Origin: Bilabrum cf. latius
Taxonomy: Eukaryota
Assembly (NCBI GenBank): GCA_965178125.1
Contig: OZ237747.1
Coordinates: 992,001-1,056,000 of the forward strand
DNA length: 64,000 bases
Reading direction: 5' to 3'
In this document: one piece after another, positions 21,672 through 63,881 of the stretch
Layout: every line of letters starts with the position of its first letter
How positions within the stretch are numbered: the first letter of the stretch is position 1
The notes under the pieces: generated by a model
Database searches by the model: none
Seen by the model: only the letters and a program-made list of their open reading frames with translations
What the model was told of the DNA's origin: nothing
Position numbers and translations under genes: made by a program

Positions 21672-24600
21672 TCACCCGAGCGGTCCAAGCACGCTGCCGA
21701 ACTCATGCGCAACAGCAATCGAGTCGCCCAAGTTCAGCACCGCGTGCGATGACCCATGAGGCACGATCACCACATCCCCTTCGCGCTGCAGGCAGACACC
21801 AGCCATCGGCGTCCGCAGCGGCCCCGCAGACGACGGCAACGCCTCAGCTGTGGGTCCACCGACGTGCCCGAAAGTGCGCGCCACAGCTACCACGCCTGGG
21901 TGCATCAGCACCTACATGGCCAGCAGGCGGGCCAGCTGCCGTGCATCGCACTTCTGCCCGCTGCTGGTCGAGTCAACCTCGGTTGTGTTCTCGTTCCCTC
22001 CACCAGTGACTCGCATCATTTCTCCGATCTTGCAGCCTGGCGTAGAATCACGAGAGCAGAACCTGCACAGCCGCAGCAGCTGCTTCGGCGACACACGGCC
22101 ATCGCGTTTCGTCCAGTGGTGCAGCCCGGTTCCACATGGCAGCGCGCACGTAAAGAAATCTACCGACGGCATGTTGGAATACAAACCCACGACAGGCGGA
22201 GCCACCCACCACAGCTTCATCCCCCGCAGCAACGCGTTCGCTGCGTGCTTGTGGGTATGAGGCGGTGCACCGCTCCCTGCTGGCCCGACCGCCAGCTACG
22301 GGCGCGTCTGCGCCGTCATCGTGAACCTCGTGCTGCTGTGCGGTGCGCCTGGCTCGCTGGTATTGATACCGTGGCCCTGTACGGTACTTGACGATATCGC
22401 AGTGCTGATGCAGGGCAATGGGTGCGGCACTACTCTCGACAATACCGGGATACTATTTTGCGTGTGCTTCTGGTGCTTATCATCAGCATCATGCAATGTT
22501 CCGTGCGCACGGTGGGTGCGAGTGTGATCAAAGAGGTACATTGGCGGCTATGGCAGCGCACCTGCTGTTTTTGCACCGGTGGTGCTCAAGCAGCTGCTTC
22601 CTGCGCCAGTACCAACACAATGTGCCTGCTGCTGCTGCTCCTGCTGCGAATACTGCTCATGCGACGATGTCTGCTGCTGCATCGGCCCCTGCAGCAGTCT
22701 AGTCCAACTGCCGTCGGCGCTGATATCGCGCACTACGCCCGCATTATCTGGGTACAATAGCCTAGGAGTGTGTTCCATCATGAACTGCCCCATTGTCGTG
22801 GTTGCTGCCGAGCTTCCAGAGGCTTGCCCCGCGGCCGCGACGCTTGGCTGGTCGGCAGCGTATGGGACGGTCCCCACTGCGTAGGACTGGCTGGCGCTAT
22901 CCAAGACCTCTGACATCTTGCCAACATCCAGAACAGTGTGATCGAAGAATAGCGCGCTTCGGTCATTAACCGCTGCGTTGCCAGGCGTAGTCATAGTCAC
23001 ACCAACATGCCCCTCCACGGCTGCTCGACCGGCCACTGCACTTGTTATTCGAGCACCGCCTCGCACGAGCACTGGCATGCCGCGGGCGAGTGATGACACC
23101 ACCGTCCTCGCCACAGATGTTTGTTCTGCAGATCTTGATCGAGAGGACCCGTCAATTGTCACCGCGCTACAAGGGAACGCAGCTTCGAAGGGATCGGCTG
23201 CCATGTCAACATTAGATAATGCAGATCCATTCGGTGAAGCTTTGAAGCCCTCAAGTTCTAGCCGCTGTGCCAATGCAAGCGGCTCTAAAGCAACTCCAAT
23301 TCGCTGCTAAAGTCTGCCGCTGCTGGTGGCAACACCACTTTGTTCGGGAATGGAGTCTTGTAGATCAGCGCTCTGTGAAGGTCGAGGCGCTGGATCGGGA
23401 TCGGACACATCTGCCTGGGATATCCCGGCGAGCTGAAGCAGCTGGCCCGCTAGCACCGAGTCCCCGCTGGCAGCAGCAGCTTCAGCTGGGGTGCGTCCCA
23501 CACAGTCGCGCTCCTAGGCTGCGCGAGCTGCACCCGACTGCGTGCCACCCATCGCAAGCATGGCGACGGCGGCGCGGTTGCCCGACCTCGCGGCCAGATG
23601 CAGCGCATTGCCGCACCACGGCGCGGACACTGCAGTAGAGTTACTCGGATGTATGACGCTCCGGTCCGATGTGAGGTTATCTATCACCGTTGCAGGCCCA
23701 CTGTCGGTGGCACGCGTCGACTGCGCAGTGGCAGCAAGCACTATGCGGACTGCTGCAGCGGTGGCAGCATTCGCCAGCTCTGAGGCAATCTTCCATGGGA
23801 GCATGTTGCCTTGTGGCCCACTTGTACTACGCGGGTCACGATCAGACGCCTTCTTGCTGGCAGCCTTCTCGGAGTTGTGTGCAGGCTGCACCGCCAGTCC
23901 CGGCAACCGCAGAAGCGGCAGTGTCGTATCGTCCGCTTGATTACCGACAGAAAGATCCGCTGTGGCACCGACTGCAGCGGCATGAAATGTCCTAGCAAGC
24001 GCTGACTTGGTTCGAAGGAAAGCATCGCGCCTCTCAGCACGGAGCGTGCTCGCGCTCGCAGCGCCCTGCCCCTGACTCGTTTGAAGATGGCCGGGAAGGC
24101 GGAGGCTGGCGCAGGCACGGCGGATGGATTGGGCTGTAGCTCGGGGCAGGATCTCTGGAAGTGCAGTGCACTGCTACGAGATCCATGCCTGGTTCGAGAG
24201 GGCCTACTCCCTGCTGGGTGAGGGAGACAGGAGCCTCTTGACGATAGATAGCTGAAGCGCAGGTGCCGCTCTCAAGATGGCATGGATCACGCCCCCACCG
24301 CCTGCGAGCTCGCACGCCAGTCCCCTCGCCAAGTTTGGCAGCGTCAGTGGTTGGCCCGGCGCGAAACCTGCTGCGGTCGGGCCCGCGCGCCCCAGCGTGC
24401 TACCATCCCCAGCACCTCTCAGCAGGCAGGGCCAGCAGCCAGACGACATACCAAATTCATCAATGTCCTCATTGGTTCCACCGCTGCTCGTGTCTGCTGT
24501 CGCGATGGAAGGGGATTCTGGCGGACATCCCGCTTGGACTAGCGCCTGCAGCGCGGACGGCTGCATACTTGCTGCAGCCAAAACAATCGCGGCCCATTGA

Positions 24601-24896
24601 ATGCCTATATCTAAGCATTGCCCGGACGCAGACTTCGAGCAGCATAACTACGATATCTGGACCCAATCTATTGCGCGACGCTCGGACGGCTGTTTCACAT
24701 ATCCAGCGATTTGGCTGGCAGCCACCACAGAAGGTGGCAACATGACGCCTCTCTGCATCGCAAGTGTATAAAGTTCGCCAGCGATCCGCACCTCCGGTCT
24801 ACCTGCGCGAATTGCGCGGCCAGTAGCTGGAGCGCATAGCACCAGGGCAATCAACACAATCAGCATCGCTCGAGCCAGTTTGTAGCTGCCCGTCAT
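21672..24896 (-). CDS. Secreted ankyrin + JmjC (JMJD8-like cupin) domain protein (~1070 aa)
   Basis: One frame with 8 TAGs (24648, 24204, 24174, 23514, 23307, 22548, 22296, 21912) and no TAA/TGA until TGA 21672. Signal peptide MLIVLIALVLCAPATG; ankyrin-like GNALHLAARSGNRAAVAMLA; JmjC (TAG)LAVGPAGSGAPPHTH..A.NALLRG.K.W...PP and CLQREGDVVIVPHGSSHAVLNLGDSIAVAHEF. Confidence 0.88.
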
Positions 24897-25038
24897 CTAC
24901 AATTAAAGCCGGACAAGGAGCCAACTCGATTTGTCATGTATTCTGCTTTATTCCGAACTTGCAGGGAGGCGACCAAATTGGGCTCTCGTTTCCGGTCTCG
25001 TTGCCGGCGACGCCAACATGCACAGTCACAACGTAAAT

Positions 25039-28426: not shown

Positions 28427-29662
28427 TCAATCAGGGGCAACGATCCACCTCTCGCACGGCAGCCCAAGCCGGTAGCAGACCAGCCGCATGAAGTACGTCC
28501 GGAAAGTGAGGTGGTCGTCGTTCACTCGCGACACGCCCACGCCCCCCTCCACCATCTCTTCGCTCCCCAGCTCCAGCAGGGCACCCCTCCACGCCCTGTT
28601 CAGCTTGCCCCCGGACTCCTTGATGGACAGCAGCGACAGCAGCAGGTCCTCCCCGTGCCCCCACGGCTTCTGGTGCACCAGGGTGTCCTCAAGGGCGAGC
28701 ACGTGGGCAAAGTACTGGTGCGCCCGGCTCCGGTCGAACATCACTAGCCGTGTGACGAGTATTGGGCAGGCGTGCTGGATGTCCTCCTCGCTCCTCTCTG
28801 CGGGCGGCTTGTACCCCGGACCCACGGGCGTGGCAGGCACGGACACGTCGCGGTGTGACGAGTGTGTCGCGCCCGGCGGAGCACTGCGGTGTGACGAGCG
28901 TTCCCTGCTCCAGGACAACTGCTCGGCCACCACTCCCGGGGTCGCCTTCCAGTCGTTCCAGAAGTACCGGTACGAATCGGCGCCCGGTGCCGTTGGTAGA
29001 TCACTGGAACCCACAGGCACGTCTCCAGCGTCTGAAGGAACAGGCCCCCTGCATTGAACCCCGTGCACCCGATCGGGTTCCGCGGCCCACCGGTTGTAAA
29101 GTTCCCTCACGGTCGCTTCGGAAAGGAGCATGTCGTCGTCTTGAGTGAGCACAGCTCTCGTGCGCGCCAGCGTGGCTGCGAAGAAACGGTTATTCCCGAT
29201 GCCGAGGTTCCGGGAGGAGTCTATTATGGTGACACGGTCGTCGCCACCCTACCACGTCGAAGACGTGGCCGACAGATCGTCGCGAGGCGAGTTGTTCATG
29301 ATTATAATGTCCTAAATGAGCTCGCGCGGCATGCTTTGGTACCGAGATAGGATACGGCGCATATGGTGCGGTCTTTTATAGTTGAGTAGTACTACAGTAA
29401 TTCCTTGTTCCCGTACCGCGGCCCCCGGGCCGCCTACTGTTGCCGCAAGGCCTGGTCCATCAATCGCGGCAGCGACCGATTTAGCAGGTGAAGCCGAGCG
29501 CAGGATGTTCCACTCCGCATACTGCAAGAAAATTGGCCCGACAGTTCTCCAGTAAATGGACGTTAAGACTGGTAGCAGCATCACACCGAGCACACAGCAG
29601 CACAAGGCGCCGGCAGCGAATGACGGCAGCTGAGTGCTGGACACCGCCGATCCTCCATGCAT
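28427..29662 (-). CDS. Glycosyltransferase family 64 (EXTL2-like), type II membrane protein (411 aa)
   Basis: N-terminal TM, then ITVVLLNYKR...I(TAG)DIIIMNN...GNNRFF...TRAVLTQDDD...GEDLLLS. Two ORFs in the same frame are joined across two TAGs. Ends TGA. Confidence 0.85.
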
Positions 29663-29885
29663 TTTACTGCCCTACCTCGGCATATATAGCTATTTACGAC
29701 TATCTGCGTTAGCATTGTGCTATTTTCTGTGGCGATACATTCAAAATTGGCTCGAGGAGCTATCGAGCGTCCGAACCCCTGACGAAAATTCCTCAAGGTG
29801 GCGCCGCGCAGGCCTCAGGCTTTTACGGAACCTATATACGAACTGACCCCGAAGGACCACAAGTACTCAGGTCAATTTCAGAGGA

Positions 29886-31677: not shown

Positions 31678-32110
31678 TCACACACCCACGCCAGCTACAG
31701 CAGATTTCCGCGGCCTCAACCGGATTCGCCGCGCCCCGCCCACGGAAGCACCCAACGACTCGGTTGCGGTTGCAGCCAGGCCTGCTGCTGCCCCAGCCGC
31801 CGCAGCTTGGCCGACCTTGCCCGATGGACTTGCTGCAGCCACTGCGTTTTCTTTCACAGCGCTACTGCCAAGTGGCACTCGCTTCGACGGCTGCTGCTGC
31901 AGGTGCTGCGATTGCCCAACCGCCGTCGTCGCGGTGCCCTCCGGCTTGCCCTCGACCTCGGCAGCGGCAGGTGACCCTCCTGCAGCAGCAGCAGCAGCGG
32001 TGGCGGCGGCGCTAGGCACATGCGAGACTCGAGAGGAGGACGATAAGGGGGCCCTGGTTCTCGAGCGGCGGGCAGCAGCAGCAGATGCATGTCGGTGGCG
32101 CTGCCTGCGC

Positions 32111-32142
<32 letters not shown>

Positions 32143-35100
32143 ATGCTGCTGCCCCGTCCGGGCTGCTGCCCCGTCGGTCGAAGGGGCTCGCGCGGCGACG
32201 GCAGGCGCAGACTGCCGCGCCCTGCCACGGCTACCAGAGCTGGCCGTGGAGGCAGTGCGCGACCTGGCTCTGCGCCTGCCGCCCGTCGCACCCGCTGCTG
32301 CGGAACCGGCGCCGCGCAAGTAGGCGGGCACCGGCCGTGCCCTGAACTGCAGCTCCTCTCGCCTGCGCCTCTTGACCTCCTCCTCCTCTTGTTCCCTGGC
32401 CCGGGCCTCCTCCTCCGCTTGTTCCCTGGCGGCTGCCTCCGCCCTCTCCTGCCTCTGCGCCTCGAAGGCAGCCCGCTGCGCCATGCGCTCCTCAAGCCTC
32501 CGCGCCCCCGCGGACTTGGCGGGATGCGTGGGGGCGCGCTTGGGGGCCTGGGCCTGGGCGTGGCTGCTGTGGTTGTTCCCTGCTGCGGGGGGTCCGTGCA
32601 GTACCCCCTGCGGGACGGGTCGGGCGCGGAACACGCGCTCCCGTTGTTCCCTGTCCTGTTCCTCGGCCAGCTTGCGCGCCTCCTCCTAGGCGGCGCGCGC
32701 GTGCAGCAGCTCCGACTGCAGCTGGAACGGCTGCGGAACCGTGGGAGCTGGCGGCGCCACATGCGCGGCGCCACTTACGGAACCTCCAACACCCTCCATG
32801 ATGCCGCGGGCGTGGAACTCGCGCGCCTTCCGCTCCTGCACCTCCTGCTCGTGCTGCTGCCTCCTCATCGTCTCCTCTGCGGTCGCGTGGCGGCCGTCGG
32901 TGGCCAGCGCGAACGGCTTGGGCACGGTGAGCCTCTTTGGTGCAGGGGCAGCACCATGCGATGCACCCTGCGCGGCCATGGCTGCGTAGTCCGGCACGGG
33001 CCGGGCCTTGAACGCCACTTGCGTCGTCTCCCGGGCTCCTCCTGTTCCCCCAGCACCCGCGCCCTCCCCGTGCTGCTGCTGCTGCTGCTGCTGCTGCTGG
33101 GCCTTGGCCGCAGCCCGCGCCTTGCTGGCTAGAGGGGGGGAGAACGGCGTGGTCAGCTCCGTCACGCTGCGGCCCCTGCCTCCCACCAGCGGGGCCACAT
33201 CGAAGCGGGGCATCGGGCGGGCCCTGAACTCCGGCTGGTGTGACGAGTGATCGTGCTCATGGTGTGACGAGTGATCGTGGAGGGTCTCACGCTCGGCGGT
33301 GTGCAGCTTGGGCGGCTGGGGGACAGTAGGCGCGCGCCGGGGAACAAGGCGGATCCCCCTGCTGGCCTCCTGCTGGAGCGCGGCGGCGTCGTACGGACGC
33401 GCGCGGAACGGCCCGACCGCCTGCGCCTCGGCCAGCTGGCGCTCCTCCGTGGACAGCGGAACTTCGTGCGCGGCGCCGTGCTGCGCGAGGACGTCGTCGG
33501 TCGCAAAGTGGAACGGCTTCGGCTCCGTGGGGTGCCGCGGCGCCGCGCCTGCGGAACCGTCGGCCTCCTCGTGACGGAACGCCCTCTCCGCCTTCGCGAC
33601 CTGCTCGGCCAGCGGAACATACCCCTCGCCTGAATGCGCGGCGCCGGCAGCGGGCGCCCGCCTCGGACCCCCAAAGGTGGGGGTCTTCGGCCTCGTGGGC
33701 GAGCGGTGCTGGTGCTGGTGCTGGTTTCCACCGGCTCCTGCGCGCTGTTCCCTGGCTGCGCGGGCGGCTGCCCTCTCTCTCTCCTTCCTCTCCTACTCCA
33801 GCTGCTGCTGCGCCCGCCGGATCTGCAGCTCCTCGGTGGTTAGGGCCGGTTCCTTAGAGGAGGTCCCCGCCGCATTTGCCGAGGCGTGGCTCAGCTTGGG
33901 CGTGTGCGGAACCGTGGTGCGCGGCACCCACGGCTTGGAAGCGGGAGAGCCGGGCTTGCTGCGATGACCTTGCTCCTCACCGTCGCTGTCCTTGGGCCGT
34001 CGGGCCGTGCGTCGCGCTGCTGCGGCGGCGGTCTGCTTCAGGTATCCCGGCGTTGCGGAACCGCCATCCCTGGTTGCGCGGCGCCGCGGGGTCTTCGGGC
34101 GAGGTTTCGCCGAAGCGGTTGCAGCAGTCGCCATCTTGGAACGTTCCGCAGCCGATGCGCGGCGCCGCGCCTCGATCGCCTCCCTCTTCCGGCGGGCCAG
34201 CGCCGCCCTCGCCCTCGAGGCCGTCGTCCCTTTGGCGGCCATCGGAGTCACCGCCTCCATTCGCGCGGCGCCGGTTCCGTTCGTGGGAGCGGCAGCAGTC
34301 GGACTGCTGGGGGCGCCCGTCGCTGCTGCATCACCGTCTGGGGCGGCTGCGGCTGCGGTTGCGGTTGCGGTTGCCCGTTTGGATCGGGCGATGGGGTGTG
34401 CAGAGGCCGCGCGTCTCCTGCTCGTCCCTAATGGTGCCTGTGCATGTGCATGTGCATGTGCATGTGCCCGAGGCTTGCGGGCGCTCGTCACACGCTTGGA
34501 GTGCGCTGGGGCTGCGGCGGCGGTACGCTTCGCTGCGGCGGGCCTTGGTCGCCTTGCCACTGGGTGCACGCTCCGCGCCCGCCTGCCAGCAGCAGGGGGC
34601 GCCGAGGGGGCGGCAGCGGGGCGGGACCGGGGACGAGCTGCGGTGGGAGCTCCCGGCGTCTTGCTAGCGGCCTTCTCTTTCTTGTTCTTCAATGCGGCGC
34701 GCTTCTCTTGTACCCTGGCCCTAGCCCTTGCGCGCGCCTGCGCCTGCGCCTTGGCCACGCGAGCCTTCGCTGCCTCAACCGCCTTGTCGTACTTGGAGGC
34801 GCGCTGATCCGCAGTGCTTCGATCACTGGTCTTACTGTGGGCAGGCCTCTTGTAGGCAGAACGCGCGGCGCCAGATTTCTTGGTTCCGCTCGGCTTGGCT
34901 CGTCGGGAGGTCTTGGCCGTGGGTTGTTGGCTAGAGGGGGCAGGGGCACGCGCGACGACCCGTCGGGCACCTCCAACCGTGCTGATTTTAGACCTTGTTA
35001 GAGCGGCTGCAGGAGACGCCTGCTCGTCCTCCTTGCTGGTTTCCTCTGCCTTGGCCTCGGCGTGATGCTTTGCCGGGCTTGGCGACGGCTTGCCCGCGGG

Positions 35101-40816: not shown

Positions 40817-40961
40817 GTTCCTGGGCTGCAGCAGAGTGAATTTTGCACTTTCTTTCCGGAACGATCCGACATCGTGCAGTGCAGTGCACCGAAGGTTCGT
40901 TCGTCCGAGATTTCGATCCGGGGCTTCCGGCAGGTAATTCGACCCTTGCCCAGGGTCGACC

Positions 40962-53269: not shown

Positions 53270-56200
53270 ATGTCGCTCAAGCTAACTGTTCAAGTGAAGC
53301 CGATCGGAGGGAAACTACGAGTTCCTGTCAAACCAGATTCGACGGTCAAGAAGCTCAAATCACTGGTTGTAGCGTGAGTGTATGGATGAATCGAGTAGTA
53401 TTTCAAGTTGTGACACATTATATAGCTTTTTTGAATGCACTCTAGATCGAACCCAGTATCGCAGGCGATCCAAGAAGCTCAAGGAGTTCAAGGCGCTTGG
53501 GCTGAGTGCCGCTGAGGCTGACGCCATCATTTGCGATGGACTGTACGAAGATGGAGCCGCACTCGATTCCGATGACGAAGTGGGTGACGCGATTTCGTCT
53601 GATCAGGTCGAAGCCGTCCTGGAAGGTCCCAGGCTGGTGGGATCCGGTGCGGGCCGTGCCGCCGATCCAGGAGCACCTGCAGTGCAGCCCCCTCCACTAC
53701 CAGGCTCGCGGGTCCCACCACCTGAGGGTTCTTCTTCAAAGAAAAAACCGAAGAAATCTGGAGGAAAGAAGAAGCCGAGGGGGGGGTCGGAAGGCACGTC
53801 GAGCGGAAGCTCGGCCTCGTCGCTCGGCGAACTCCTGCCCATCCCGGGGCAGAGCGCCCCGGTGCCTCCAGCCGATGTGGAGCCCGGCAGCCTGTCGCGG
53901 ATCCCTGGATTCGCTACAGGCAGCCACACGGTGTGCTACCGCCTTGCAGCCTCCGCTCGCTTCGTCAGGCTCCCCGTCAACCCCAAGACCACGACCTTCG
54001 CTGGGCTGCGTCGGGCGATCGCGCGGGTGGAATCGATGGCCGTGTACGACAGCAGCAGCACCAGTGGTGAAGACAAGACAAAGTAGAAGAAGAAGACGAA
54101 GAAGCAGAGCACTGGTGGTAAAATGAAAAAGAAGGTGATTAGCGACCCCACCTCCGGGGATGGATCCCCGGACGAGCACACTGTGACGATGCACCTCGCC
54201 ACTCGGGCGTTCCCCCTTGACCCACCGACCTCAGCATCGGGTGGCGGGAGGGGCGGCGGCGGGCACGATGAGGATCCGTCCGGCAGCACCACGGGCGATG
54301 GCAAGGCCCACCGCCTTAGTGACGATCTGACGCTCGAGGAGTGGGGCTTCACAGGGGCTCTTGCCGACTGTGAAGCGGCGCGATCCATCCACCCGGAGGC
54401 ACCCAGCTTCGCGGGGATCGGCCAGGCCACAACGGCCGCTGCGGCTAGTATGGCCGGTGAGCCGCAGAGCACGACCGTATTTGTCACACTGTGCAACAGA
54501 GACAAGGACCCGACCGCGGTGGCAGACGAGGGTGCCGATGGCTCCGCTGTGACTCAGGCAGAGATACTGACCAAGGCAGCCGAATGGCAGCCGGTGCTGG
54601 GCGGGGAGCAGGCGCGCTGCATCGGACTGCCACCGGAGAACGATATGCAGTTCGATCCTGAGAGACTGGTCACGGGCATCGGTGGCGGTGGTGGCGGTGG
54701 TGGTGCGGCCGATGGGGGTGATCCAGTCGTGGTGCCTGCAGCGAGCGGTGCAGGGCTCGGTGGCACGGACCGCGTGGCGGCCCCTCCTGTCACGGCTGCT
54801 CGCCGACACACAAGGGACACCATGCTGAAGAAGCAGACTGACAAGGGCATGTCCGAGATGCTGGGATGCTTGCTCGTGCTGCAAAACAGGCTTGATTCCT
54901 CCCAGGTCAGGCAGCTGGTCGGCTTCGTGAGGCGCGTCACGCAGTTTGCGCCTGCCGCTCACTGTCTAAGCATGGTGCTTCAGAAGAGGGCAATCACGAG
55001 GGCCGGCAAGGCAGCCATCTCCTCTGCTCTCTTTACCATCGGGCGCGCCCTACTGTCTTCGAGCGTTTCGGATGAGCTGGTGTTTGAACACGCTAGGAGC
55101 ATCTTCTCCTTCTTGCTGCTCTCGGGCCAAGACAAGGTATTGGTGGTCAAGCCTGACAGCAAAGTCGACGACATTGAGTCGACGGACCAGCTGCTGCTTA
55201 CACGATACCCCACCAGATGCACAGACGGCGACAAGTCGTTTGTACTGCGGGAGCTGCACTGCGAGATCACCAACGAACGGCTCGTTGACCCAGTCAAAGT
55301 GGCCAAGGAGCCAGAGGCAGGTGGGAAGAAGCTGAGCAATGCCGTGATGGCCTTGCAAGCAGGCAAAGTCTACACGAAGCAGGCTGCGCTATCGAAGATA
55401 TCAAAGAAGAACGGCGGGCTGCGGAGCGACAGCGAGTCTGTCTCTGCTGGCTGGGCCGGTGTCACAGCCAAGCACCTGGTGACTGACGAGCTGTCTCTCC
55501 TGCTCATGCGGTCGACACCTCAGAGCCTCACCGCATGCGAGTGGAGGCCACAGCCACTTCACGCGGTTGATTCCGCGCATGCGACAGAAGTTGGCCTTGG
55601 TTCTGAAGACACTGTCGTGGCCAAGCCGTCGGCCTCCTCTGGTGCTGGTGGTGCAGACCAGCTGGAGCTGCCCCGGAGGTGCCGCCCGACCGCCGCATGC
55701 TCTGCCAACGGGCCTCCACCGCTGCTATCGCTAGTCAGCCGCCCACAGATGATGTCAGAGCTCCGTGCAAAGCTCAAGAACGCATCCACGACCACGCTCC
55801 GAATGGTGCCCGGCATGCAGAGGTGCCACCCATCCAGCCTGAACGATGCCACACCGTATTCCCTCACTGTGGATGGCACAGGTCGCACGGTGGTGTACGT
55901 GGAGAGGTCGAAGAGCCCCGGCAAGTCTACACGAGTGTTTGATCCGCTGACAGGGGAGTGGTCCGACATCGACAAGGACGCAGTGGCAGACGAGCTGAAG
56001 AGGAGTGGCGTAGAGATTTAGGACGATGGGGGCGACATGGCACCTCGCGAGCCTGAGGAAGCAGTGGTGCTTGCGGTGGATTGTTCAGCATCTATGTGGT
56101 CCTACGGCTTCGAGGATCCGTGGGAGATCAGCCAGAGCGACTTCAAGCGGGAGCTGAGGGCGATCTACGACAAGTCCTTGTCCTCCTCGAGCGCGGCGAC

Positions 56201-58682
56201 GAGAGAGCTGGCCAGGGAGCGTCTGCTAAACATCGGCTTTGCAGACCATCAGATTCACCTTGAGTCTTCCGATGGCGACAAGTTCATCGGTCGCCTGGAG
56301 GCATGCGTTGAGCTACCGATGCTGCGCCGGCTTTGGACCACCAAGTTGTCCTCTCGATCTGCCGGCGACAAGTTCAACTTCATTTCGCGTGAGTTGGCTT
56401 ACCTTCTGATGACACCGGAAGAGCACCAGCAGGGCAACAAGAGGCGTAAGCTGAGAGAGGCCCGAGTGGTGTGCTCCGTATACGCTTCAAGGATCGTAGA
56501 AAAGCTGTCAAGCGGTCCTGGGGCTCGAGCTGGCGGTGGTGGGGCAGCGGCAGGTTCAGCCTCTGGGTATGGGGGTGTACCATCTTCGTAGCGCTGGCAG
56601 CTTGTGGAGCCATCCATCATCGGTAGAGGCTGCCCCGACAGCGTGCGGTGCCCACTGAGCGGCAAGCTGTACATCGATCCAGTGCGGACTAGCAACGGCA
56701 AGGTGTACGAACGCAGCGAGATCGTCAAGCATCTGCAGCGGCACGAGAAGCTGCCGGGGTCGAGCTCCAGGGCGACATCAGAAGAGGATCGCACGCTGAA
56801 GGCAGACGCCGAGAAGCTAAGGGCGGTGCGTCGCTGGCTGGAACGACACTCTTGCGGAACCGCAGATAATGCGTTCGGTGGGTCGGGGCACTGGTTTGCC
56901 ACGAGATACAGGATGAATTACGGGATGGGGTACTTCTCACACGACGCATGGAAGCCAGTCTTTGTACACAGCAAGACAGAGCCAGCTGGGCTGCGTCTGC
57001 TTCTCTGGGAGCAATCTGGATTCGATGAAGAGCTTGCGCCGTCCCAGCAGACTCCGTGGTATGGCATGGTCAGTTCTTCCGATGGTTTCGTTAATGGCCA
57101 GGTCGAGCTGTTGTCGTACGGACGAGGGACTCTTCCAACCAAGAGCGTGGGGCTTGCCTACACAGTATCGCCCGAAGGGCTCGCTTGGCCCCCTGCTGTT
57201 GAAAACGAGACGTTGGATGCCGACTACACGCAGCCCACGATCAGCAGCGAGGCGCTACTGAAGGAGAAATGCGGAGGCACTCTGGCAGTGCCTGCCGGCA
57301 GCCTATACATCTGCGAAGAGTACGACGATCAGGGTAACGATCCGGAGCGCAAGAACCGCATGCTTACTGTGAAGGTTTTGTTCCAGGCATTCATAGACAG
57401 GACGGCGGCTTTCGATCTGCCCCATCATCTCGGACTCGTGACCTTCTCAAACAAGCACGAAGAGAAGTGCGGGCTGACTGCAAGCTTTGACGACCTTCGC
57501 ACCAGCCTAGAGGAGATGGAAGAAGATGGCGAGACTGCGATGAACGACGCCATCCAGCACGCTGGCACGATGCTCAGCAGCTGGAAGGCTAGTGTCTTGG
57601 CAAGAAGGCGGGACCAGGGTCAGGGCCACTTGCCGCCGCCCAGGACCCGGATCGTGTGCTTGTCCGATGGCGAGGACACCAATTCCACCAAGCCCCTGCA
57701 TCGGGTGGCTCGAAAGCTCAAACAGGATGGTATCGTGCTGGACGGCGTGCTTGTGGGCACGAGCTCGAACGAGGAGCTGCATCGCATTGCAAAGTTTACG
57801 GGCGGGTACTCCTTCCACCCCAAAACCATGTTCGATGGCCTGCAGCTGTGCGAGCTCGAGACGTTCCTTTCCTCTGCCGACCGCCCCAAGCTGCGCACGG
57901 TAGAGGGCGCAGTGAGCTCCAACTCCGACCTGAGCAGGTGGTCCTCGTACTCCGTGCCCCGCGACGTGTGCTCAGACACTATTGTTCCCCAGAGGCGAAG
58001 GGATCCCAGGCAGACCAAGCGAGCCCTGCCCCTGGCGAAGGCAGTGGCAGCTGTCACCGCGGCTGCAGGGACTCCGGCTGGCATGGCACCACCTGCAGCG
58101 CCTGGCCGTCGCAGCGGCGGCACGGGCACAAGCGGCGGATCGAAAGGAGCGAAGCCCAGCTCCGGCGGAACAGACGCCGCGGCACTCGTCACGCGCAATC
58201 GTCGGATCCTGCGCGAGATGCACGACCTCGTCAAGCGGCCCCACGATGCGTGCCAGGTGTTCCCGAACCAGGACGATGTGGGCTACTGGCGAGTCCTGAT
58301 GAAGGGAGCAGACAACACTCCGTACCAAGGAGGCATCTGGTGCCTGCAGGTGGCCTTCCCGCCAGAGTACCCGACCAAGGCGCCCAGCGTGCGGTTCCTC
58401 ACACCCATCCGGCACGTGAACATCAGCATCCAGGGCAAGGTGTGCCACGCCATTCTGGATCGCGCGTGGACTCCAGAGCAGACGATGAGGGACGTTTTGT
58501 CTCAGATCTACGGGCTGATGATGACTCCGGAGAAGGATGACCCACTGGATTCCAATCTGGCTGCCATGCTGAGCAAGCCGGAGACCAGGGGGAAGTACGA
58601 GGCCACGGTGCAGGCGTTCGTGGACGAGCACGCCAAGGGCAAGACGATGGCTGAGTGGCGGCGGGAGCTGACGGGGCAGTGA
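53270..58682 (+). CDS. Ubiquitin-like/U-box/VWA/UBC (E2) multidomain protein (join 53270-53373, 53426-58682; ~1785 aa)
   Basis: Ubl-like MSLKLTVQVK...VKPDSTVKKLKSLV; intron 53374-53425 GTGAG..TAG. U-box-like CEITNERLVDPV and CPLSGKLYIDPVRTSNGKVYERSEI. VWA VLAVDCSASM / GLVTFS / GETAMNDAI / IVCLSDGED. UBC PYQGG...FPPEYP..AP.VRF.TPIRHVNISIQGKVC. In-frame TAGs at 54084, 56019 and 56589; TGA end. Confidence 0.88.
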
Positions 58683-58856: not shown

Positions 58857-61001
58857 TCAATCTGAAAGCCGGGCTGCAACTTTTTGCTGTGCCTCCCGAA
58901 TCAGAGTCACGTTGATTGTGTACCCATCATTGGGAATGGGTGGCTCCAAGTGCTGCGCACTCCATTGCACCGTGAAGTTCCACACCGTGCTCAGGACCTC
59001 CTGCGGGATTCCGGACGCGGGGCTGCCAAGGAGTGCTGCATCGTGCGCGACGTCGCCAGCATTCCCGCTATCCGAAGGCAGTGCATCGCATTTCACAACC
59101 CCCTGTTGCTTTTCTTGCAGCAGATAGAGGGCCTCTGCATCTTGGATGCCCAGCCAGAGATGCTCGTGCCTGATGGAGGGCAACACGGCAACTCCAGCGG
59201 CCTCGGAGCTCATGCTCGGCGGCACGGAATCGGGTCGCAGCGGAGGGTACAGCTGCACGCCGAATCCGGAGCTGTTGTGGTACAAAGGAAGACCGTGCCA
59301 GGGGTTGCTATACCTGCCTTCGGGATTCCTCCAGTCGTTCGCGTCGTACCACGACAGGGTGCCTCTGAGCCCCTGTCCCTTGGGCACACCGTTCCAGCCC
59401 TCGTCCACGCCGCTGTCAGTCCGCCATACCATCCACGCCTGCAGCCGGATGCGAGGCCACGGCATGTCCACGAATAGCATCCCGTTGTCGTAGATGGTGA
59501 TGGTTTTGCCGGCCTTCCGAAGCCCAGCCAGCTGCAGAGGCACGCCTGGGGTGGACCACTGATTCACGTGGACGCACCACGTGTCGACCGTCTTGACCAG
59601 CTGGGCCATCACCTTGGGGTCTTGTGGGGCAACGGGCATCACGGGCCACCTATCTTGCCAAATGCGGATGTCCTCGCCCAGAGTCTCGGTGGCAAGCTGC
59701 ATCATCTGCAGCGTTGCCTGCGCGGTGGTGTTGTCGTTCCACTCTGGCTCATCCACGACAAAGTACGAGTAGGTGATGGAGCTGAACCAAGGCTGTTCCT
59801 TCAGTTGCGACCACAGGGCGGTCGCAAGCGCTCGCCAGTGCGCCTTGTACTGCTCTGCCAAAGCGACCGATCCGTCTGGCAGCGACTGCAGCAGCGGGAT
59901 GTGACACACGCCAGCTTGCGGGCCCTCAGTCCAGAAGAACGCAGTCGCATTCGTGGTCACGTAGTGAGTCTCGTGGTGCAAACTGACTGGTATAGGGAAG
60001 TGAAACCTCCGCACGGACGAAGTAGCGAGCACCTCCCGCATCTGGGCGAAGTACAATGTCAGGTTGATTGAGTAGTGCGGAGTCAGCGTGCTGCAGTCGC
60101 CTCCAGCCAGGTTCGCCTTGGGTACGGGCCACCAGTCGTTCTGGTACTCGAGGGAGTTGACCCCGTGGGAGGTCATCGCTTGGATTGCGTGCATGAAACT
60201 CCCCGTTGTGTTACCCTTAAACTGCCCGGGCTGGGCGTACTCGAGTGCCACCCCTTGCGAGTGGCAGTCTGTCAGCTGGTGGAGCTCAGGGCTGTCTGCA
60301 TCGAGCTTCTTGGGAGCAGCGACATTCTTTAGCACTGCTTTAGACGTGCCGATAGGCTAGGTGATGACGCGAATAGGCACGGGAAGCGCGTCAGTCGAGC
60401 ATTTGACCCGGGATGGTCCGGCTCCATCTCCGGTCTCCTGGAACGTGACGTCGAAGGCAAGCTGCCCCGAGCTATCCTGGCTCACAGCAGCTGCCTTCAA
60501 TCGAACCCAGATCGGCCATGTGGTCTGCCCTTCGATTGCCTTGAATGCAGAGTTGTTGGCGAGGCTAGTGTAGCCGGTCACGATCGGTGTGAGAGGGTCC
60601 GGGAACCACCCTGTCAAGTTCTCGGGATTGCTTGGGATCGGCACGTGGACGTACCCAACACCAAACCACGATGAACCTTGAACGAGGGGCGAGCGGCCAG
60701 TCCCACCAGCTGTGCGTACGTTGATAGCTTCCACCCTGTCTGGTACGTTTGAGCCATCAGCACGGCTGATTGCAAGCTAGAGTGCGATCTCTTGGTTGGA
60801 AAGGGCGCTGAAGGATACCTGCTTCGGTATTCCAATTGCACCGGCTTTAGATCCGTCAGGAAACACCTTAACAAGCGAATCAACAATAGAAATGTCCCAA
60901 ACGGATCGGCTCCCATCCATTGATGGCTCGCATGCGATCTATGACGATTGCACAGGGTCTAGCAGAGCAACACAGCACATAACCTATAGAAAGCTGTGCA
61001 T
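58857..61001 (-). CDS. Secreted GH123-like / DUF4091 glycoside hydrolase (714 aa)
   Basis: Signal-like MHSFL(TAG)VMCCVALLDPVQS; SLVKVFPD...ALSNQEIAL(TAG)LAI; WFPDPLTP; YFVVDEP; C-terminal GVQLYP...PSIRHEHLWLGIQDAEALYLL. Four TAGs; TGA end. Confidence 0.78.
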
Positions 61002-61132
61002 GGTCTTTATAGGTGATCGCATTTTGCACCTTCCTACTATTCTGAGCACAGTTTTTTCTGTCGACGTGCCGCGTGAGGCATGCCTGACAGTAATCGGAGC
61101 ACCACGAGCGGAACAACTCGAAGAAGCAGGTG

Positions 61133-62260
61133 TCACAGCTCGTCGTCTTCGGCAGCTTCAAAATACGCCCCAGGGATCTGCGATCCTACTGCCATGCCCG
61201 CTCGATGGGAGAGGCCCGCGCCCGGGTCACCAACATCCCTTGGGCCGGCAGCACCGCCGCTTTTGGCACCACCGGCACCAAACCGAGTAGAGCTGGAACC
61301 GGCTGCCGGGCGGGAAGCCGGCTGCGCCGCAGACACGGACGCTGCATCTAGTGCCGCAGCACTGCCCATCGCTCCGGGTCCGGGGCCAGATACCCCCTTC
61401 GTCCCTGCGGCTTGTTCCCTGCGGCTCCGGATCATCGCCCGGAGCCCCTCCCTGCTCCTGTCCCCCTTTGCCCTCACACGGGCCCGCACTGCAGCATCCC
61501 TATCGATGGAGGCGGTGGGCCGCTTGTCCGGGCCCCGGCCGATCCCTCCCCCGGCGCTGCGCGATCCTCCGGGTGCGGAACCTGCGCCCGTCCCGGCTCC
61601 CGCGCCGCTCGACGGCAGCATCCTCCTCGGCATGCCCTCCCTGTCGGGCGCGAAGCAGTTGCGCGGGCCCCTCAGTGCATCCGGCCCCGAGCGGCCCAAC
61701 GGACCCATGGAAGCCGCGCTGAGCATTTCAGCCACGGCGCCTGCAACGCCAGGGGCCCTCGGGATCCTTCTCTCGGAGAATTCCAGGAAATGCGACGAGA
61801 AGGGATGGTCGCAGTTGCAGATGAATGGCGAGTCGTACTTCGTGCAGTCGCACCTGGAGTTCTTGCAGGGGTGGTCGCCAGGCCCCGCTTCGTGCTCAAT
61901 GGCCTTATGTTTACACCGACAGCGCAGAAGCAGGGCCCCTTGACCGAAGATGTAGTTGAACTGGCCACATTTGCAACCTCGCTCGTCGCAGTGCCAGCCC
62001 CTGCCACCTGCTGCACCTGCATTGTGCTGCCGAAGCCTGTGGCCACAGAGGCATCGACTTTCTGAAATGCAATTTACGCAATGCTGATTGCATTCTCTAC
62101 ACTTCCAGCGGACTTGCATCGCTGCGAGCCGCTATGCCCTCTGCCTCGCCGACAATGGTTTGGCAGATTTTCCTGGCATGCCCACGGGTCGTCTGGAGCT
62201 GGGCGCATATCCAGTTGTAGAATGACTTGTTCGGCCACTAGCCCCACCCGATGCTGCCAT
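61133..62260 (-). CDS. FAM221: FAM221 (DUF4475) family cysteine-rich protein (375 aa)
   Basis: CISESRCLCGHRLRQH...CKCGQFNYI...CRCKHKAIEH...CDCTKYDSPFICNCDHPFSSH. Extends upstream through TAG 62132 to ATG 62260. TGA end. Confidence 0.75.
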
Positions 62261-62399
62261 ATGGAGGTATTTTGTGCCAGAAGTTCACGCTTGCAACGGA
62301 CGTGAAAGGAACGTTCCATGTTCCAACGAAGGTCTATTTTCAACGGCCGCGTGAGAAGCAAAATAGATACTAATTCCACTGTTCAGGTACCAGCATCAT

Positions 62400-63881
62400 T
62401 TACCTCCTTCCACCCGTTGCAGTACCGTCGGCGGCATTGATTTCGGAATGCAGAATGCCAGCTAGCAGCGCAGCCACCTCCCTCGGACGCTCTGCATGCA
62501 GCCAGTGCCCCGCTGCAATGGAATGCAGCCTGCAGCTACCCGTGCTAAGAGAATAGGATTCGACAGAAGCTTTGTTCAGCGTAGACACAGCTGATCCACC
62601 GCCGTCACCGCCACTATCAGACACCCCGTCCGGAGCACTTGCTCTGGAGCGAGCATGGTCAAGAGACAGCCCTGAAGGGTCCAACGCCCGAGGCAGAGGC
62701 GCAGGCGATGCAGGTGAGAGCACGCCTGCGGAACCAGACGGACCATCGCGGCGCCGCGCATCCTGCGCCTCGAGCACGCCCTGCAGCCTTGCGACCACTT
62801 TGGGCACTCCCCAGCGAGCCCCCCGAGTGCCGAGCACGAAATCGATCGCGGCGCCGCGCGGGGGGTTCCGCAGCAGGTCCCACGAGTCGATATCAGCCAG
62901 GTCATGGTAAGCGTTCAATGCCTCGACTGGATCAAACGTCCACACAAACCCATCACTGCCACCATGGTCGTCAGCATGGTCGCGCCCGCTCAGTGGCACC
63001 CCGCGCTCGTCACACGCTGCTTCCGTCACGTTCGTCGTCATCCACTGAGAGAGCGATTTGCTGAAACCCAGCTGCGAAAAATACTCACCCGCCGCGCGGC
63101 GGCTGGGAAACGGAAGCGGCGCAGCACGCACCGCCTCGAGCACGACCTGCACACCATCCTGGTCCCGCCGAGCCTTATGCGGTGTGACGAGTGGATTTCC
63201 TGTTTGTGTTCCCTATGATTGCGAAGGGTGCGTTCTCCACCTTCCCGGGTACGTGTCCAGCACCACGAGGCGTCGCCGGCGGTGCTTCGCGCTGGTGTTG
63301 CTGCTGGGGCTGCTACTGCTGGTGGCAGTGCTCGGCCCGCCCTGCGAATGCAAAATTACTTTGCCGCCCATGGAGTGCCCGATCACCACGTTGATCGGAG
63401 TGGGGGATAGTGTCGGCAATGATGCTTCGTCCAGTCGAACCGCTGACGGCGGAACAGCCGAGTGTGGTCTGTGAAGAGCCGTCCCCGCTGGCACGTCCAG
63501 AGCATGCAAACCAGTCGTGCCCTCGATCTCAATCTCAGACAACAGGCTATTTAATTTCGCTGCGCACCTTTTTACAGATACTGGACGCACGTCGCTGTGC
63601 AGTGATCCAGCGTGAGATGGTAAATCGACGAGGACCGCTGCCCATCGGTTGGCCTCCCGCTCGCCCACTCTGTCCTTTAAGGCACGAAGTACTAGCCTTG
63701 CCACGGACCGCCAATTCTTGCCTGCACCCATCAGTCCATGCACGACAGCGAAAGCTTTGGTTGGGCTTCTTGCTCCCGGGAGAGCTACAAGCTAATGGGC
63801 CAGGGATGACGCATGCCGCCGCGACACAACGACTTCTTGAGCTTTCAAGCACTTTTTCACAAATCTGCGACTAGATCTCAT
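62400..63881 (-). CDS. ABHD11-like alpha/beta hydrolase with mitochondrial-like presequence (493 aa)
   Basis: VHGLMGAGKNWRS, VDLPSH, GHSMGGKV nucleophile, VVLD, QWMTTN and AGHWLHAERP. The catalytic halves are joined across TAG 63213. A second TAG lies at 63792; ATG 63881 MRSSRRFVKK; TAA end. Confidence 0.85.

What the first reader, a model, noticed from the sequence alone, without database searches (positions are those of the whole stretch)
21672..63881. Nuclear genetic code variant: UAG is a sense codon, most likely glutamine
Seen in sequence: more than a dozen genes are split only by in-frame TAG, often in the middle of a domain. Examples are the ABHD11-like hydrolase between its Ser and His halves, JmjC, GT64, the VWA/UBC gene and SRPBCC. 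Evidence for Gln: TAG heads CAG runs (39533 TAG CAG CAG CAG CAG CAG; 38642 TAG CAG CAG CAG; 5176 TAG CAG CAG CAA). TAG 17963-17965 aligns with CAA 11782-11784 in the paralog. TAG occupies the Q of the JmjC Q-x-x-x-GP-x-GSGAP motif (22296) and of the GH123-type N-terminal N-E...QL motif (60777). Established knowledge: nuclear UAG-only reassignment is rare; I recall Iotanema (Gln), a rhizarian (Leu) and some ciliates. Inference: this GC-rich, intron-poor protist may be an undescribed independent case.
Basis: partly seen in the sequence, partly recalled or inferred. Interest (0 to 1): 0.97.

Follow-up and report, generated by a model that had tools for sequence, protein, structure and literature searches.

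The report
Nuclear code: UAG read as glutamine
This GC-rich eukaryotic contig comes from an organism that reads the stop codon UAG as an amino acid, most likely glutamine, while still stopping at UGA and UAA, a rare kind of genetic-code change.

Summary
In 12 gene frames (12,588 codons) there are 95 in-frame TAG, 0 TAA and 0 TGA. Homology runs in frame across TAGs: GT64 against EXTL2/EXT2, the JmjC homologs, and an NPC1-like gene on a related metagenome contig.

The TAGs are neither spliced out nor edited. Three runs from two other studies carry GT..AG spliced forms and cover 42 of 43 in-frame TAGs in 44-64 kb with no differing letter.

TAA is still a stop. 4 of 22 window frames end in TAA. 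In the relative L001 the UBC ortholog ends in TAA exactly where the window has TGA.

Glutamine is the best-supported meaning:
- One TAG (22296-22298) sits in a column where 112 of 120 homologs have Q.
- Pfam scores summed over seven families are highest for Q.
- TAG neighbourhoods resemble Gln sites more than any of the 19 other residues.

Variable sites give mixed residues (T, S, E, K, and Q twice). No tRNA, eRF1 or peptide evidence could be obtained.

The code type (TAG=Gln, as in NCBI table 15) is known from Iotanema and some ciliates. The lineage is unidentified and looks like a new, probably independent case. The GH123 motif claim could not be tested.

The parts
21672..24902 (-). JmjC + ankyrin gene frame, 1076 codons, 8 in-frame TAG after the first Met, ends TGA
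   Evidence: Pfam JmjC 8.3e-06. 924 homologs at E<=1e-3 for the C-terminal 307 aa. Fragments of a close relative, 72-78% identical.
22296..22298 (-). TAG opposite a nearly invariant Gln column (motif P-Q-[FL]-x-x-G-P)
   Evidence: Of the 150 best homologs, 120 align here: Q 112, E 4, M 1, K 1, S 1, gap 1. The relative's fragment P0001 ends just before this position.
28427..29740 (-). GT64 glycosyltransferase frame, 5 TAG, two of them (29312-29314, 29249-29251) inside the domain match
   Evidence: Pfam PF09258 9e-12, stretch 114-231. EXTL2 and EXT2 alignments cross both TAGs. Score by TAG meaning: K 46.9, Q 46.8 ... L 44.2, W 43.3.
31678..35496 (-). TPX2-like gene frame, 2 TAG (33793-33795, 32686-32688)
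   Evidence: Pfam TPX2. TPX2_importin score (below cut-off) by TAG meaning: Q 24.0, E 23.4, K 22.3, S 21.6, L 20.0.
35861..39766 (+). Frame of 1301 codons with 12 TAG, no Pfam family. TAGs at 38642 and 39533 head CAG runs. A TAG-TAG pair lies at 36266-36271.
39941..41383 (-). SRPBCC-like frame, 5 TAG, ends in TAA (39941-39943)
   Evidence: Pfam Polyketide_cyc, weak. Stop codon.
40938..45719 (+). Frame of 1593 codons with 14 TAG, no Pfam family. A TAG-TAG pair lies at 45474-45479.
   Evidence: Transcript contigs cover 44001-45869 with 0 other letters.
46123..50702 (-). Gene with a Q/S-rich body (26 TAG in the 46123-50226 frame). Two 5' introns at 50022-50164 and 50356-50448. Start Met at 50702. 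The 5' exons resemble an HSF-type DNA-binding domain and hold 2 more TAG (50604-50606, 50331-50333).
   Evidence: Joints in X5, X6 and X7 but not in X1. Spliced frame. HSF_DNA-bind E 0.04-0.1 on one exon, below cut-off.
50942..52984 (+). Frame of 680 codons, 1 TAG after the first Met (51035), ends TGA
   Evidence: X6 contig 50991-51791 has 0 other letters.
53270..58682 (+). Ubiquitin-like / U-box / VWA / UBC gene. Start Met at 53270, intron at 53374-53464. 3 TAG in the coding sequence (54084, 56019, 56589). Ends TGA.
   Evidence: Pfam UQ_con 2.1e-33, U-box, VWA. GT..AG joint in three runs. Spliced start. The L001 ortholog ends in TAA at the same position.
58857..61157 (-). GH123-like frame, 4 TAG, including 60777-60779
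   Evidence: No Pfam, PDB or word-index hit. Atlas look-alikes are GH123_cat at 0.95, 29 of 30 hits, a lead only. Transcript contig 53465-61029 has 0 other letters.
62400..63998 (-). Alpha/beta-hydrolase frame (runs off the window). TAG at 63792-63794 and 63213-63215. Ends in TAA (62400-62402).
   Evidence: Pfam Abhydrolase_6 1.2e-05..
10132..14004 (-). Paralog A of a 6.18-kb tandem duplication, 8 TAG after the first Met. CAA at 11782-11784.
17033..20167 (-). Paralog B, 96.5% identical to A, with a 1-nt deletion after about residue 978. TAG at 17963-17965 lies opposite CAA of A. 7 TAG are shared with A in the same frame.

Best explanation
The window is nuclear DNA of a GC-rich eukaryote that has spliceosomal GT..AG introns. 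Its translation system decodes UAG as a sense codon, most likely glutamine. UGA is the main stop and UAA a minor stop. This is the pattern of NCBI table 15.

**Shown**
- TAG is abundant in frame and kept in mature transcripts.
- TAG is crossed by homology.
- Related organisms behave the same way.
- TAA and TGA are absent in frame and end the genes.

**Inferred from established knowledge of other reassigned codes**
- A tRNA-Gln with anticodon CUA (or an equivalent efficient decoder) exists.
- eRF1 has lost UAG recognition but keeps UAA and UGA.
- Once UAG was freed, C-to-T changes in CAG and other one-step changes at weakly constrained sites seeded TAG codons. TAG now makes up about 14% of putative Gln codons (95 TAG, 418 CAG, 146 CAA).
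For: **Sense codon**
- 95 TAG, 0 TAA and 0 TGA in 12,588 codons of 12 frames.
- 9 frames of 1000 aa or more with TAG read through, against 0 under the standard code.
- The GT64 alignment crosses 2 TAGs.
- Relative L001 has an NPC1-like frame with 10 TAGs, collinear with human NPC1 in 5 blocks.
- Fragments of a second relative's ortholog, 72-78% identical, are cut at or near our TAG positions.

**Not spliced, not edited, not sequencing error**
- X5, X6 and X7 (two studies other than X1's) show three GT..AG joints that X1 lacks.
- Their contigs cover 42 of 43 in-frame TAGs in 44001-64000 without a differing letter, 22 of them in two or more runs.

**UAA and UGA are stops**
- 18 TGA and 4 TAA end the 22 window frames.
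- 3 of 3 L001 frames end in TAA. The UBC ortholog's TAA is at the position of the window's TGA.

**Gln**
- JmjC column: Q in 112 of 120.
- Pfam bits summed over 7 families: Q 172.6, S 170.9, K 170.1, E 169.8, L 165.7.
- TAG neighbourhoods fit Gln. For each of the 19 alternatives, at most 2.3% of resampled true sets reach the TAG score.
- TAG flanks 2 of 20 ends of Q runs of 3 or more, against 0.15 expected, p=0.01.
- At 6 orthologous sites with TAG on one side only, Q occurs twice (p=0.027); T, S, E and K occur once each.
- CAA lies opposite TAG between the paralogs.
Against: **Strength of the Gln evidence**
- Only one TAG lies in a strongly conserved column.
- At variable columns the profiles are mixed. 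SRPBCC prefers S (23.5 against Q 22.3). The sub-threshold NPC1_MLD match in L001 prefers L (16.7 against Q 14.5). The HSF half-domain slightly prefers S and K.
- The close relative has T, S and E opposite 3 of 4 of our TAGs.
- Paralog B has TCG and AAG opposite two TAGs of A, although in its frameshifted part.
- In PDB alignments the residues opposite TAG are K, N, P and I.

**Limits of the context test**
- It may be confounded if TAGs simply gather in disordered, Q-rich regions.
- Its sites are not independent: 26 of 90 come from one gene.

**Missing evidence**
- No tRNA gene in the window or in L001.
- No genome is held, so tRNA-Gln(CUA) and eRF1 could not be examined.
- No peptide evidence.
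- The RNA status of X5-X7 is inferred from the spliced joints. The tool itself labels them a guess.
Confidence: 0.8

Rival explanations
1. UAG is a sense codon but stands for another amino acid (Glu, Ser, Lys, Leu ...), as in Scotinosphaera (Ser) or the rhizarian exLh (Leu), or it is read ambiguously by several tRNAs.
For: - The relative has T, S and E opposite 3 of 4 of our TAGs.
- The SRPBCC and HSF profiles slightly prefer S.
- NPC1_MLD prefers L.
- TCG and AAG lie opposite TAG in paralog B.
- E is the second residue in the JmjC column (4 of 120).
Against: - In the JmjC column S is 1, K 1, L 0 and E 4 of 120, against Q 112.
- The summed Pfam score is highest for Q. L is 6.9 bits lower.
- Context resampling rejects S, L, E and K: 0 of 300 true sets reach the TAG score at both window sizes.
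- The residues seen at variable sites are, as far as codons are known, one-step neighbours of TAG. That is what gain and loss at weakly constrained sites would give.
Confidence: 0.09
2. Both UAG and UAA mean Gln (table 6 type, as reported for Amoeboaphelidium, ulvophytes and many ciliates). UAA is only rare because the genome is GC-rich.
For: - Two of the 12 analysed frames that end in TAA have a TGA 12 and 19 codons further on, so read-through cannot be excluded there.
- TAA is rare overall: 369 against 971 TAG on both strands.
Against: - 0 in-frame TAA against 95 TAG, while CAA:CAG is 146:418. About 33 TAA would be expected.
- In-frame TAAs lie just upstream of four start regions.
- The L001 UBC ortholog stops at TAA exactly where the window stops at TGA. 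3 of 3 L001 frames end in TAA while holding 14 TAGs.
- Amoeboaphelidium genomes are about 40% GC (PMC10608142, Table 1, passage read). The window is 60% GC.
Confidence: 0.04
3. UAG is context-dependent. It is sense inside genes but also a terminator at some gene ends, as in Condylostoma-type ambiguous codes.
For: - Frames were delimited by TAA and TGA only, so a terminating TAG would go unnoticed.
- TAG-TAG pairs at 45474-45479 (79 codons before the TGA) and at 36266-36271 could mark true ends or starts.
Against: - Where orthologs are available, the ends coincide with TGA or TAA and not TAG: the UBC gene and the JmjC C-terminus against P0002.
- Nothing in the window requires a TAG stop.
Confidence: 0.06
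4. There is no code change. The TAGs are nonsense mutations in pseudogenes, assembly errors, chance, or are removed by splicing or RNA editing.
For: - Paralog B carries a frameshift.
- Long open frames arise easily in GC-rich DNA (TGA read-through control).
Against: - Only TAG, never TAA or TGA, interrupts 12 frames.
- The TAGs are identical in runs from three studies, including spliced transcript contigs.
- The three introns found do not coincide with TAGs.
- Relatives show the same pattern.
- One TAG sits in a 93% Q column and appears conserved in the relative.
Confidence: 0.01

Closest known systems
Iotanema spirale (fornicate) nuclear code: UAG=Gln, UAA kept as stop (Panek et al. 2017, PMC5304391; abstract and passages read)
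   Same: Same code pattern: UAG alone is reassigned, to Gln, in a non-ciliate eukaryote.
   Different: Iotanema is an anaerobic metamonad. Here the lineage is unknown. Identity with Iotanema cannot be formally excluded with these tools.
Protocruzia tuzeti and two phyllopharyngean ciliate lineages: UAG=Gln, UAA not reassigned (McGowan et al. 2024, PMC11687900; discussion passages read); NCBI table 15
   Same: Same assignment (TAG=Q, with TAA and TGA as stops).
   Different: The window is a conventional multi-gene contig of at least 64 kb, 60% GC, with genes on both strands. That it is unlike ciliate macronuclear DNA is my own knowledge, not tested here.
Scotinosphaera (green alga): TAG=Ser, with TAA and TGA as stops (Li et al. 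2021, PMC8271138; abstract and passages read, supplements not seen)
   Same: UAG-only reassignment, TAA and TGA retained as stops, in an alga.
   Different: Ser is disfavoured here: S is 1 of 120 in the JmjC column, and 0 of 300 resampled true-Ser sets reach the TAG score.
Amoeboaphelidium protococcarum (aphelid, algal parasite): TAG and TAA appear to encode Gln (PMC6299283 and PMC5304391, passages read)
   Same: Stop-to-Gln reassignment in an alga-associated organism.
   Different: That code includes TAA, and its genomes are about 40% GC (PMC10608142, Table 1). Here TAA is a stop and the GC content is 60%.
Uncultured rhizarian exLh: UAG=Leu (PMC5304391; passages read)
   Same: UAG-only reassignment in a non-ciliate protist.
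   Different: Leu is the worst of the five meanings tested across the seven Pfam families (165.7 against Q 172.6 bits). It is absent from the JmjC column (0 of 120).

Membership tests
UAG-only to Gln nuclear code (NCBI table 15 pattern; Iotanema / Protocruzia type) | In-frame UAG inside conserved protein-coding genes, present in mature mRNA | tested here: met
   95 TAG in 12 frames. Alignments cross TAGs. 42 of 43 TAGs are covered by spliced-transcript runs without change.
UAG-only to Gln nuclear code (NCBI table 15 pattern; Iotanema / Protocruzia type) | UAG aligns with Gln in conserved columns of homologs | tested here: met
   Met at the one strongly conserved column: Q in 112 of 120. The summed Pfam score is highest for Q. 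Variable columns are mixed, so the sample is small.
UAG-only to Gln nuclear code (NCBI table 15 pattern; Iotanema / Protocruzia type) | UAA and UGA retained as terminators, absent in frame | tested here: met
   0 TAA and 0 TGA in 12,588 codons. Stops are TGA 18 and TAA 4. The L001 ortholog has TAA at the position of the window's TGA.
UAG-only to Gln nuclear code (NCBI table 15 pattern; Iotanema / Protocruzia type) | Cognate tRNA-Gln(CUA) gene | not testable with these tools
   No tRNA in the window or in L001. No genome is held.
UAG-only to Gln nuclear code (NCBI table 15 pattern; Iotanema / Protocruzia type) | eRF1 with altered stop-codon recognition | not testable with these tools
   eRF1 is not in the window. 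No genome is held.
UAR to Gln code (NCBI table 6) | In-frame UAA as well as UAG; UGA the only stop | tested here: not met
   0 in-frame TAA against about 33 expected. TAA ends frames in the window and in L001.
UAG to Ser (Scotinosphaera type) | UAG at conserved Ser columns | tested here: not met
   JmjC column: S 1 of 120. The context test rejects Ser. Small preferences for S at SRPBCC and HSF columns only.
UAG to Leu (rhizarian exLh, some phyllopharyngean ciliates) | UAG at conserved Leu columns | tested here: not met
   JmjC column: L 0 of 120. The Pfam sum is lowest for L. Only the sub-threshold NPC1_MLD match prefers L.
Ambiguous stop/sense codes (Condylostoma type) | The same codon also terminates genes near their 3' ends | tested here: inconclusive
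   Two ortholog-checked ends use TGA or TAA. The other ends cannot be checked. TAG-TAG pairs were noted.
GH123 glycoside hydrolase (for the frame 58857-61157) | Sequence match to GH123 catalytic and N-terminal domains, with a conserved Q at the TAG position | tested here: inconclusive
   No Pfam, PDB or word-index match. Atlas look-alikes are GH123_cat at 0.95, a lead only. The column at 60777-60779 could not be aligned.

The most novel reading that the evidence does not exclude
This is an undescribed, independent origin of a UAG=Gln (UAA and UGA as stops) nuclear code in a GC-rich, non-ciliate eukaryote clade. The clade already has at least two, perhaps three, divergent members in public data: the window's organism, a relative that is 72-78% identical at protein level, and the L001 organism. 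The same TAG is kept at an invariant Gln site in at least two of them. A reassignment of UAG in a 60% GC genome whose main stop is UGA would be an awkward case for AT-pressure 'codon capture' accounts of stop-codon loss. It would also offer a tractable system, since DNA and RNA data already exist, for studying how UAG and UAA recognition by eRF1 are uncoupled.
Probability: 0.5. Interest if true: 0.85.

Novelty: new member of a known kind. Interest (0 to 1): 0.78.

Why it matters
**Rarity.** Nuclear code changes that separate UAG from UAA are rare. The papers read here list Iotanema, a rhizarian, Scotinosphaera, Protocruzia, a few phyllopharyngean ciliates and one other uncultured ciliate in which UAA and UAG encode different amino acids. 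Another lineage, apparently with several members and in a GC-rich genome, adds an independent data point on how eRF1 and suppressor-type tRNAs evolve.

**Practical consequence.** Any standard-code annotation of this organism and its relatives will cut most genes into fragments. The public protein collections already hold such fragments (P0001, P0002, P0151, P0152). Gene catalogues, orthology and phylogenomics for this group will be wrong until table 15 is used.

Tried and rejected
**Searches that led nowhere**
- Whole genome: none is held.
- tRNA and Rfam scans of the window, and a tRNA scan of L001: nothing.
- Word-index protein searches with the GH123-like protein and with L001's NPC1-like protein: no hits. 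The candidates were probably swamped by low-complexity words.
- PDB sequence searches for the GH123-like, abhydrolase and SRPBCC frames: none, even at E<=10 for two of them.
- Genome contigs and viral-contig scans for relatives: none.
- Second atlas call, on the U-box/VWA/UBC fusion: the architecture occurs in other eukaryotes, so no lineage lead.

**Ideas tested and dropped**
- Aphelid (Amoeboaphelidium) origin: rejected on GC content (about 40% against 60%) and on TAA use.
- HSF exon 1 alone: no Pfam match.
- The 112-nt satellite at 1600-4687 has a TAG where other units have CAG. Its period is not a multiple of 3 and all three frames are open, so I did not count it.
- No correlation between TAG density and GC3 (rho -0.08).
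- No shared 5' motif between genes 50942 and 53270.

**Sequencing runs**
- No RNA holder is listed on record. The RNA nature of X5-X7 is inferred from the joints only.

**Literature**
- Seven searches found no description of a GC-rich non-ciliate UAG=Gln lineage other than Iotanema. An eighth served only to find aphelid genome statistics.
- Subscription journals and supplements were not searchable.
- The supplementary alignments of PMC8271138 were not seen.

Full report
**1. The observation**

The window is 64 kb, about 60% GC, and has no N. Under the standard code no stop-to-stop frame reaches 1000 aa. With TAG read through, nine do, up to 1794 aa. I did not accept this alone. Reading TGA through also gives three frames of 1000 aa or more, because TGA is the commonest chance stop in GC-rich DNA.

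The stronger statistic comes from twelve frames chosen as gene candidates, 12,588 codons in all. They hold 95 TAG, 0 TAA and 0 TGA, beside 418 CAG and 146 CAA. TAG-interrupted frames also occur left of the stated range, at 4990-21491.

**2. These frames are genes, and homology crosses the TAGs**

Pfam finds the following in TAG-interrupted frames:
- JmjC, GT64, TPX2, U-box + VWA + UBC and an alpha/beta hydrolase, all above the curated cut-off
- a weak SRPBCC match

MAPEG and cytochrome b561 genes are also present; their only TAG lies outside the domain match.

The GT64 match (residues 114-231) contains two TAGs. The phmmer alignments to human EXTL2 and EXT2 run through both TAGs, with one short gap between them.

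An exhaustive HMMER search with the JmjC C-terminal 307 aa found 924 homologs at E<=1e-3.

**3. Not splicing, editing or error**

Nine public runs were listed for 53200-63100. I laid four of them on 44001-64000.

X1 matches the window exactly and has no GT..AG intron-type joint. It may be the source sample.

X5 and X7 (one study) and X6 (another study) each contain three joints with GT..AG ends on the strand of the gene:
- 53374-53464, 91 nt
- 50356-50448, 93 nt
- 50022-50164, 143 nt

All three introns end in TCGCAG. X1 lacks these joints, so I read X5-X7 as transcript-derived. The tool itself calls that a guess.

Splicing gives sensible starts. One is a ubiquitin-like N-terminus from a Met at 53270. 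The other is an HSF-like DNA-binding region from a Met at 50702.

None of the three introns removes a coding TAG. Of the 43 in-frame TAGs after the first Met in 44001-64000, 42 lie inside listed contigs of X5-X7, and 22 lie in two or more runs. The one missed is at 48274-48276, in a microsatellite. The only differing letter reported anywhere is 48872 G>T in X6, which is not in a TAG. Contigs can hide rare variants, but the unedited TAG form is the assembled form in three runs.

**4. The same behaviour in relatives**

A metagenome scan found one related contig, L001. It is 5840 nt and 56% GC. Its UBC end is 71% identical in protein and 76% in DNA.

Downstream it has a 1276-codon frame with 10 in-frame TAGs. 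The frame carries a sterol-sensing domain (3.6e-19). It aligns with human NPC1 in five collinear blocks over residues 272-1205.

The protein collections also hold four short fragments of a JmjC ortholog that is 72-78% identical: P0001, P0002, P0151 and P0152. The last two come from one 30,498-nt contig. They begin at the first Met after one of our TAG positions, or end just before one. This is what a standard-code gene caller produces from a TAG-containing gene.

**5. UAA and UGA**

The 22 window frames end in TGA 18 times and in TAA 4 times. If TAA were a Gln codon used like CAA relative to CAG, about 33 in-frame TAAs would be expected among the 12,588 codons. None is seen. In-frame TAAs do occur just upstream of four start regions.

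In L001 all three frames end in TAA. The UBC ortholog's TAA lies exactly where the window has TGA. I therefore read TAA as a working stop. The table 6 pattern (UAR=Gln) is not met.

**6. Which amino acid**

The literature shows that UAG-only changes can mean Gln, Leu or Ser, so I tested all of these (PMC11687900 and PMC8271138, passages read).

(a) *Conserved column.* Of the 150 best JmjC homologs, 120 align over the TAG at 22296-22298. They carry Q 112, E 4, M 1, K 1, S 1 and one gap. The query carried X there, so the hits were not selected for Q. The relative's fragment P0001 ends exactly before this position, so the relative has a stop-type codon there too. The other two TAGs of that region were each covered by only one homolog (T and R).

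(b) *Profile scores, in the manner of Codetta.* I translated the same DNA with TAG as different residues and compared whole-sequence Pfam bit scores.

| Family (call) | Q | L | S | E | K |
|---|---|---|---|---|---|
| GT64 PF09258 (55) | 46.8 | 44.2 | 46.3 | 46.3 | 46.9 |
| SRPBCC PF03364 (56) | 22.3 | 21.4 | 23.5 | 22.8 | 22.3 |
| JmjC PF02373 (56) | 30.0 | 29.6 | 29.6 | 29.7 | 29.8 |
| NPC1_MLD in L001, below cut-off (57) | 14.5 | 16.7 | 15.0 | 13.3 | 13.9 |
| HSF half-domain, below cut-off (67) | 14.5 | 13.6 | 14.8 | 14.3 | 14.6 |
| TPX2_importin, below cut-off (75) | 24.0 | 20.0 | 21.6 | 23.4 | 22.3 |
| Ank_2, below cut-off (75) | 20.5 | 20.2 | 20.1 | 20.0 | 20.3 |
| Sum | 172.6 | 165.7 | 170.9 | 169.8 | 170.1 |

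For GT64 five further readings were scored: T 45.7, R 45.5, X 45.2, Y 44.9 and W 43.3. For the other families only these five meanings were tested. The margins are small and three individual families do not put Q first.

(c) *Context.* I built a composition classifier trained on the same frames. It was applied to the 90 TAG sites after the first Met, and sets of true sites were resampled as controls. It places the TAG neighbourhoods with Gln. For each of the 19 alternatives, at most 2.3% of true-alternative sets reach the TAG score, at windows of ±4 and ±15. Two caveats apply. The sites are not independent. A tendency of TAG to gather in disordered Q-rich regions would mimic the result.

(d) *Repeats.* TAG flanks 2 of 20 ends of runs of three or more Q, against 0.15 expected (p=0.01). 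In a (NAG GGN)n tract near 48270-48300 the first codons read CAG, CTG, CAG, GAG, CAG, TAG, TAG.

(e) *Orthologous and paralogous sites.* Opposite four of our TAGs the close relative has T, Q, S and E. Its fragments end opposite our AAG and our CAG. So at six sites with a TAG on one side only, Q occurs twice (p=0.027 at a 4.5% background) and T, S, E and K once each.

Between the tandem paralogs A and B, seven TAGs are shared in the same frame. One TAG lies opposite CAA. In B's frameshifted part, two lie opposite TCG and AAG.

In PDB alignments the residues opposite TAG are K, N or P, and I.

These sites are clearly fast-evolving. They neither establish nor contradict Gln.

Taken together, Gln is favoured mainly by (a), with (b) to (d) in the same direction. 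I put Gln, given that TAG is a sense codon, at about 0.9.

**7. Mechanism**

Shown: UAG is decoded inside genes at high density, up to 26 per gene. That requires efficient decoding, not leaky read-through. UGA and UAA terminate.

Inferred from what is established for other reassigned codes: a cognate tRNA-Gln(CUA), and an eRF1 that no longer recognises UAG. Neither could be examined. No tRNA gene lies in the window or in L001 and no genome is held.

**8. Comparison with what is known, and novelty**

The assignment equals NCBI table 15. UAG=Gln with UAA kept as a stop is reported for Iotanema, Protocruzia and two phyllopharyngean ciliate lineages. UAG=Leu is reported for a rhizarian and some ciliates, and UAG=Ser for Scotinosphaera. 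UAR=Gln is reported for Amoeboaphelidium, ulvophytes, diplomonads, an oxymonad and many ciliates (PMC11687900, PMC5304391, PMC8271138 and PMC6299283, passages read).

I considered Amoeboaphelidium because of the alga link. I rejected it because its genomes are about 40% GC (PMC10608142, Table 1) and its code includes TAA.

The organism could not be placed. The window has no rRNA or tRNA. The protein tools give no taxon names. The second atlas call gave no lineage lead.

Seven literature searches found no description that fits. That covers open-access text only.

I therefore file it as a new member of a known kind, with about even odds that it is an undescribed, independent origin.

**9. What remains open**

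- The residue at TAG by direct evidence (peptides, or a genome-wide tally).
- The tRNA and eRF1.
- Whether any gene ends at UAG.
- The lineage.
- The GH123 motif claim, for which only a look-alike lead exists.

Noticed in passing
window 8047-21616: A tandem segmental duplication with a period of about 6.18 kb, three copies 95-99% identical. The large paralog B (17033-20167) has a 1-nt deletion that shifts its frame after about residue 978. It also has a short patch that is much more divergent than its surroundings, around 17900-18000 against 11720-11820.
   Followed up: partly
window 1600-4687: A satellite-like tandem repeat: 112-nt unit, 27.6 copies, 95% matches, with a higher-order period of 447. 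All three minus-strand frames are open across it. Strong AT skew (-0.29).
   Followed up: partly
window 4721-6006: A 107-nt repeat (3.3 copies), followed by a frame with 7 TAGs whose C-terminal part resembles, from memory and not tested, a retroelement reverse-transcriptase N-terminal region.
   Followed up: no
window 53374-53464, 50356-50448, 50022-50164: The three introns seen are all short (91, 93 and 143 nt) and all lie near the 5' ends of their genes. All end in TCGCAG, with GTGAGT, GTAAGT or GTTAGA at the 5' end.
   Followed up: partly
window 50165-50702 (minus): The spliced 5' exons of the Q/S-rich gene resemble an HSF-type DNA-binding domain (...SLNMYCFSK...). Pfam HSF_DNA-bind reaches only E 0.04-0.1 on exon 2 alone, because the domain is split by an intron.
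   Followed up: partly
window 51338-52004 (around 51760-51792): Read depth jumps about 30-fold in all runs, and many contigs end here with loose ends. This is a dispersed repeat or microsatellite inside the frame 50942-52984, which encodes a GT-dipeptide run.
   Followed up: no
window 63306: A 3-nt deletion relative to the window in runs X5 and X7, inside the abhydrolase frame. It keeps the frame.
   Followed up: no
window 36266-36271 and 45474-45479: Two TAG-TAG pairs. The first is followed directly by ATG. The second lies 79 codons before the TGA. They could mark a real start or end if UAG keeps some stop function.
   Followed up: no
window 25306-25692 (+) and 25925-26569 (-): MAPEG (8.8e-19) and prokaryote-type cytochrome b561 (2e-22) genes lie side by side. 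The MAPEG frame lacks a start Met and the first 26 profile positions, so an upstream exon is likely.
   Followed up: no
window 29847-30578 and 30848-31537 (+): Two neighbouring frames that share a motif (..DGLSR....EA.L..FRRDV...ER..), so they are probably paralogs. Both end in TAA and neither has a Pfam family.
   Followed up: no
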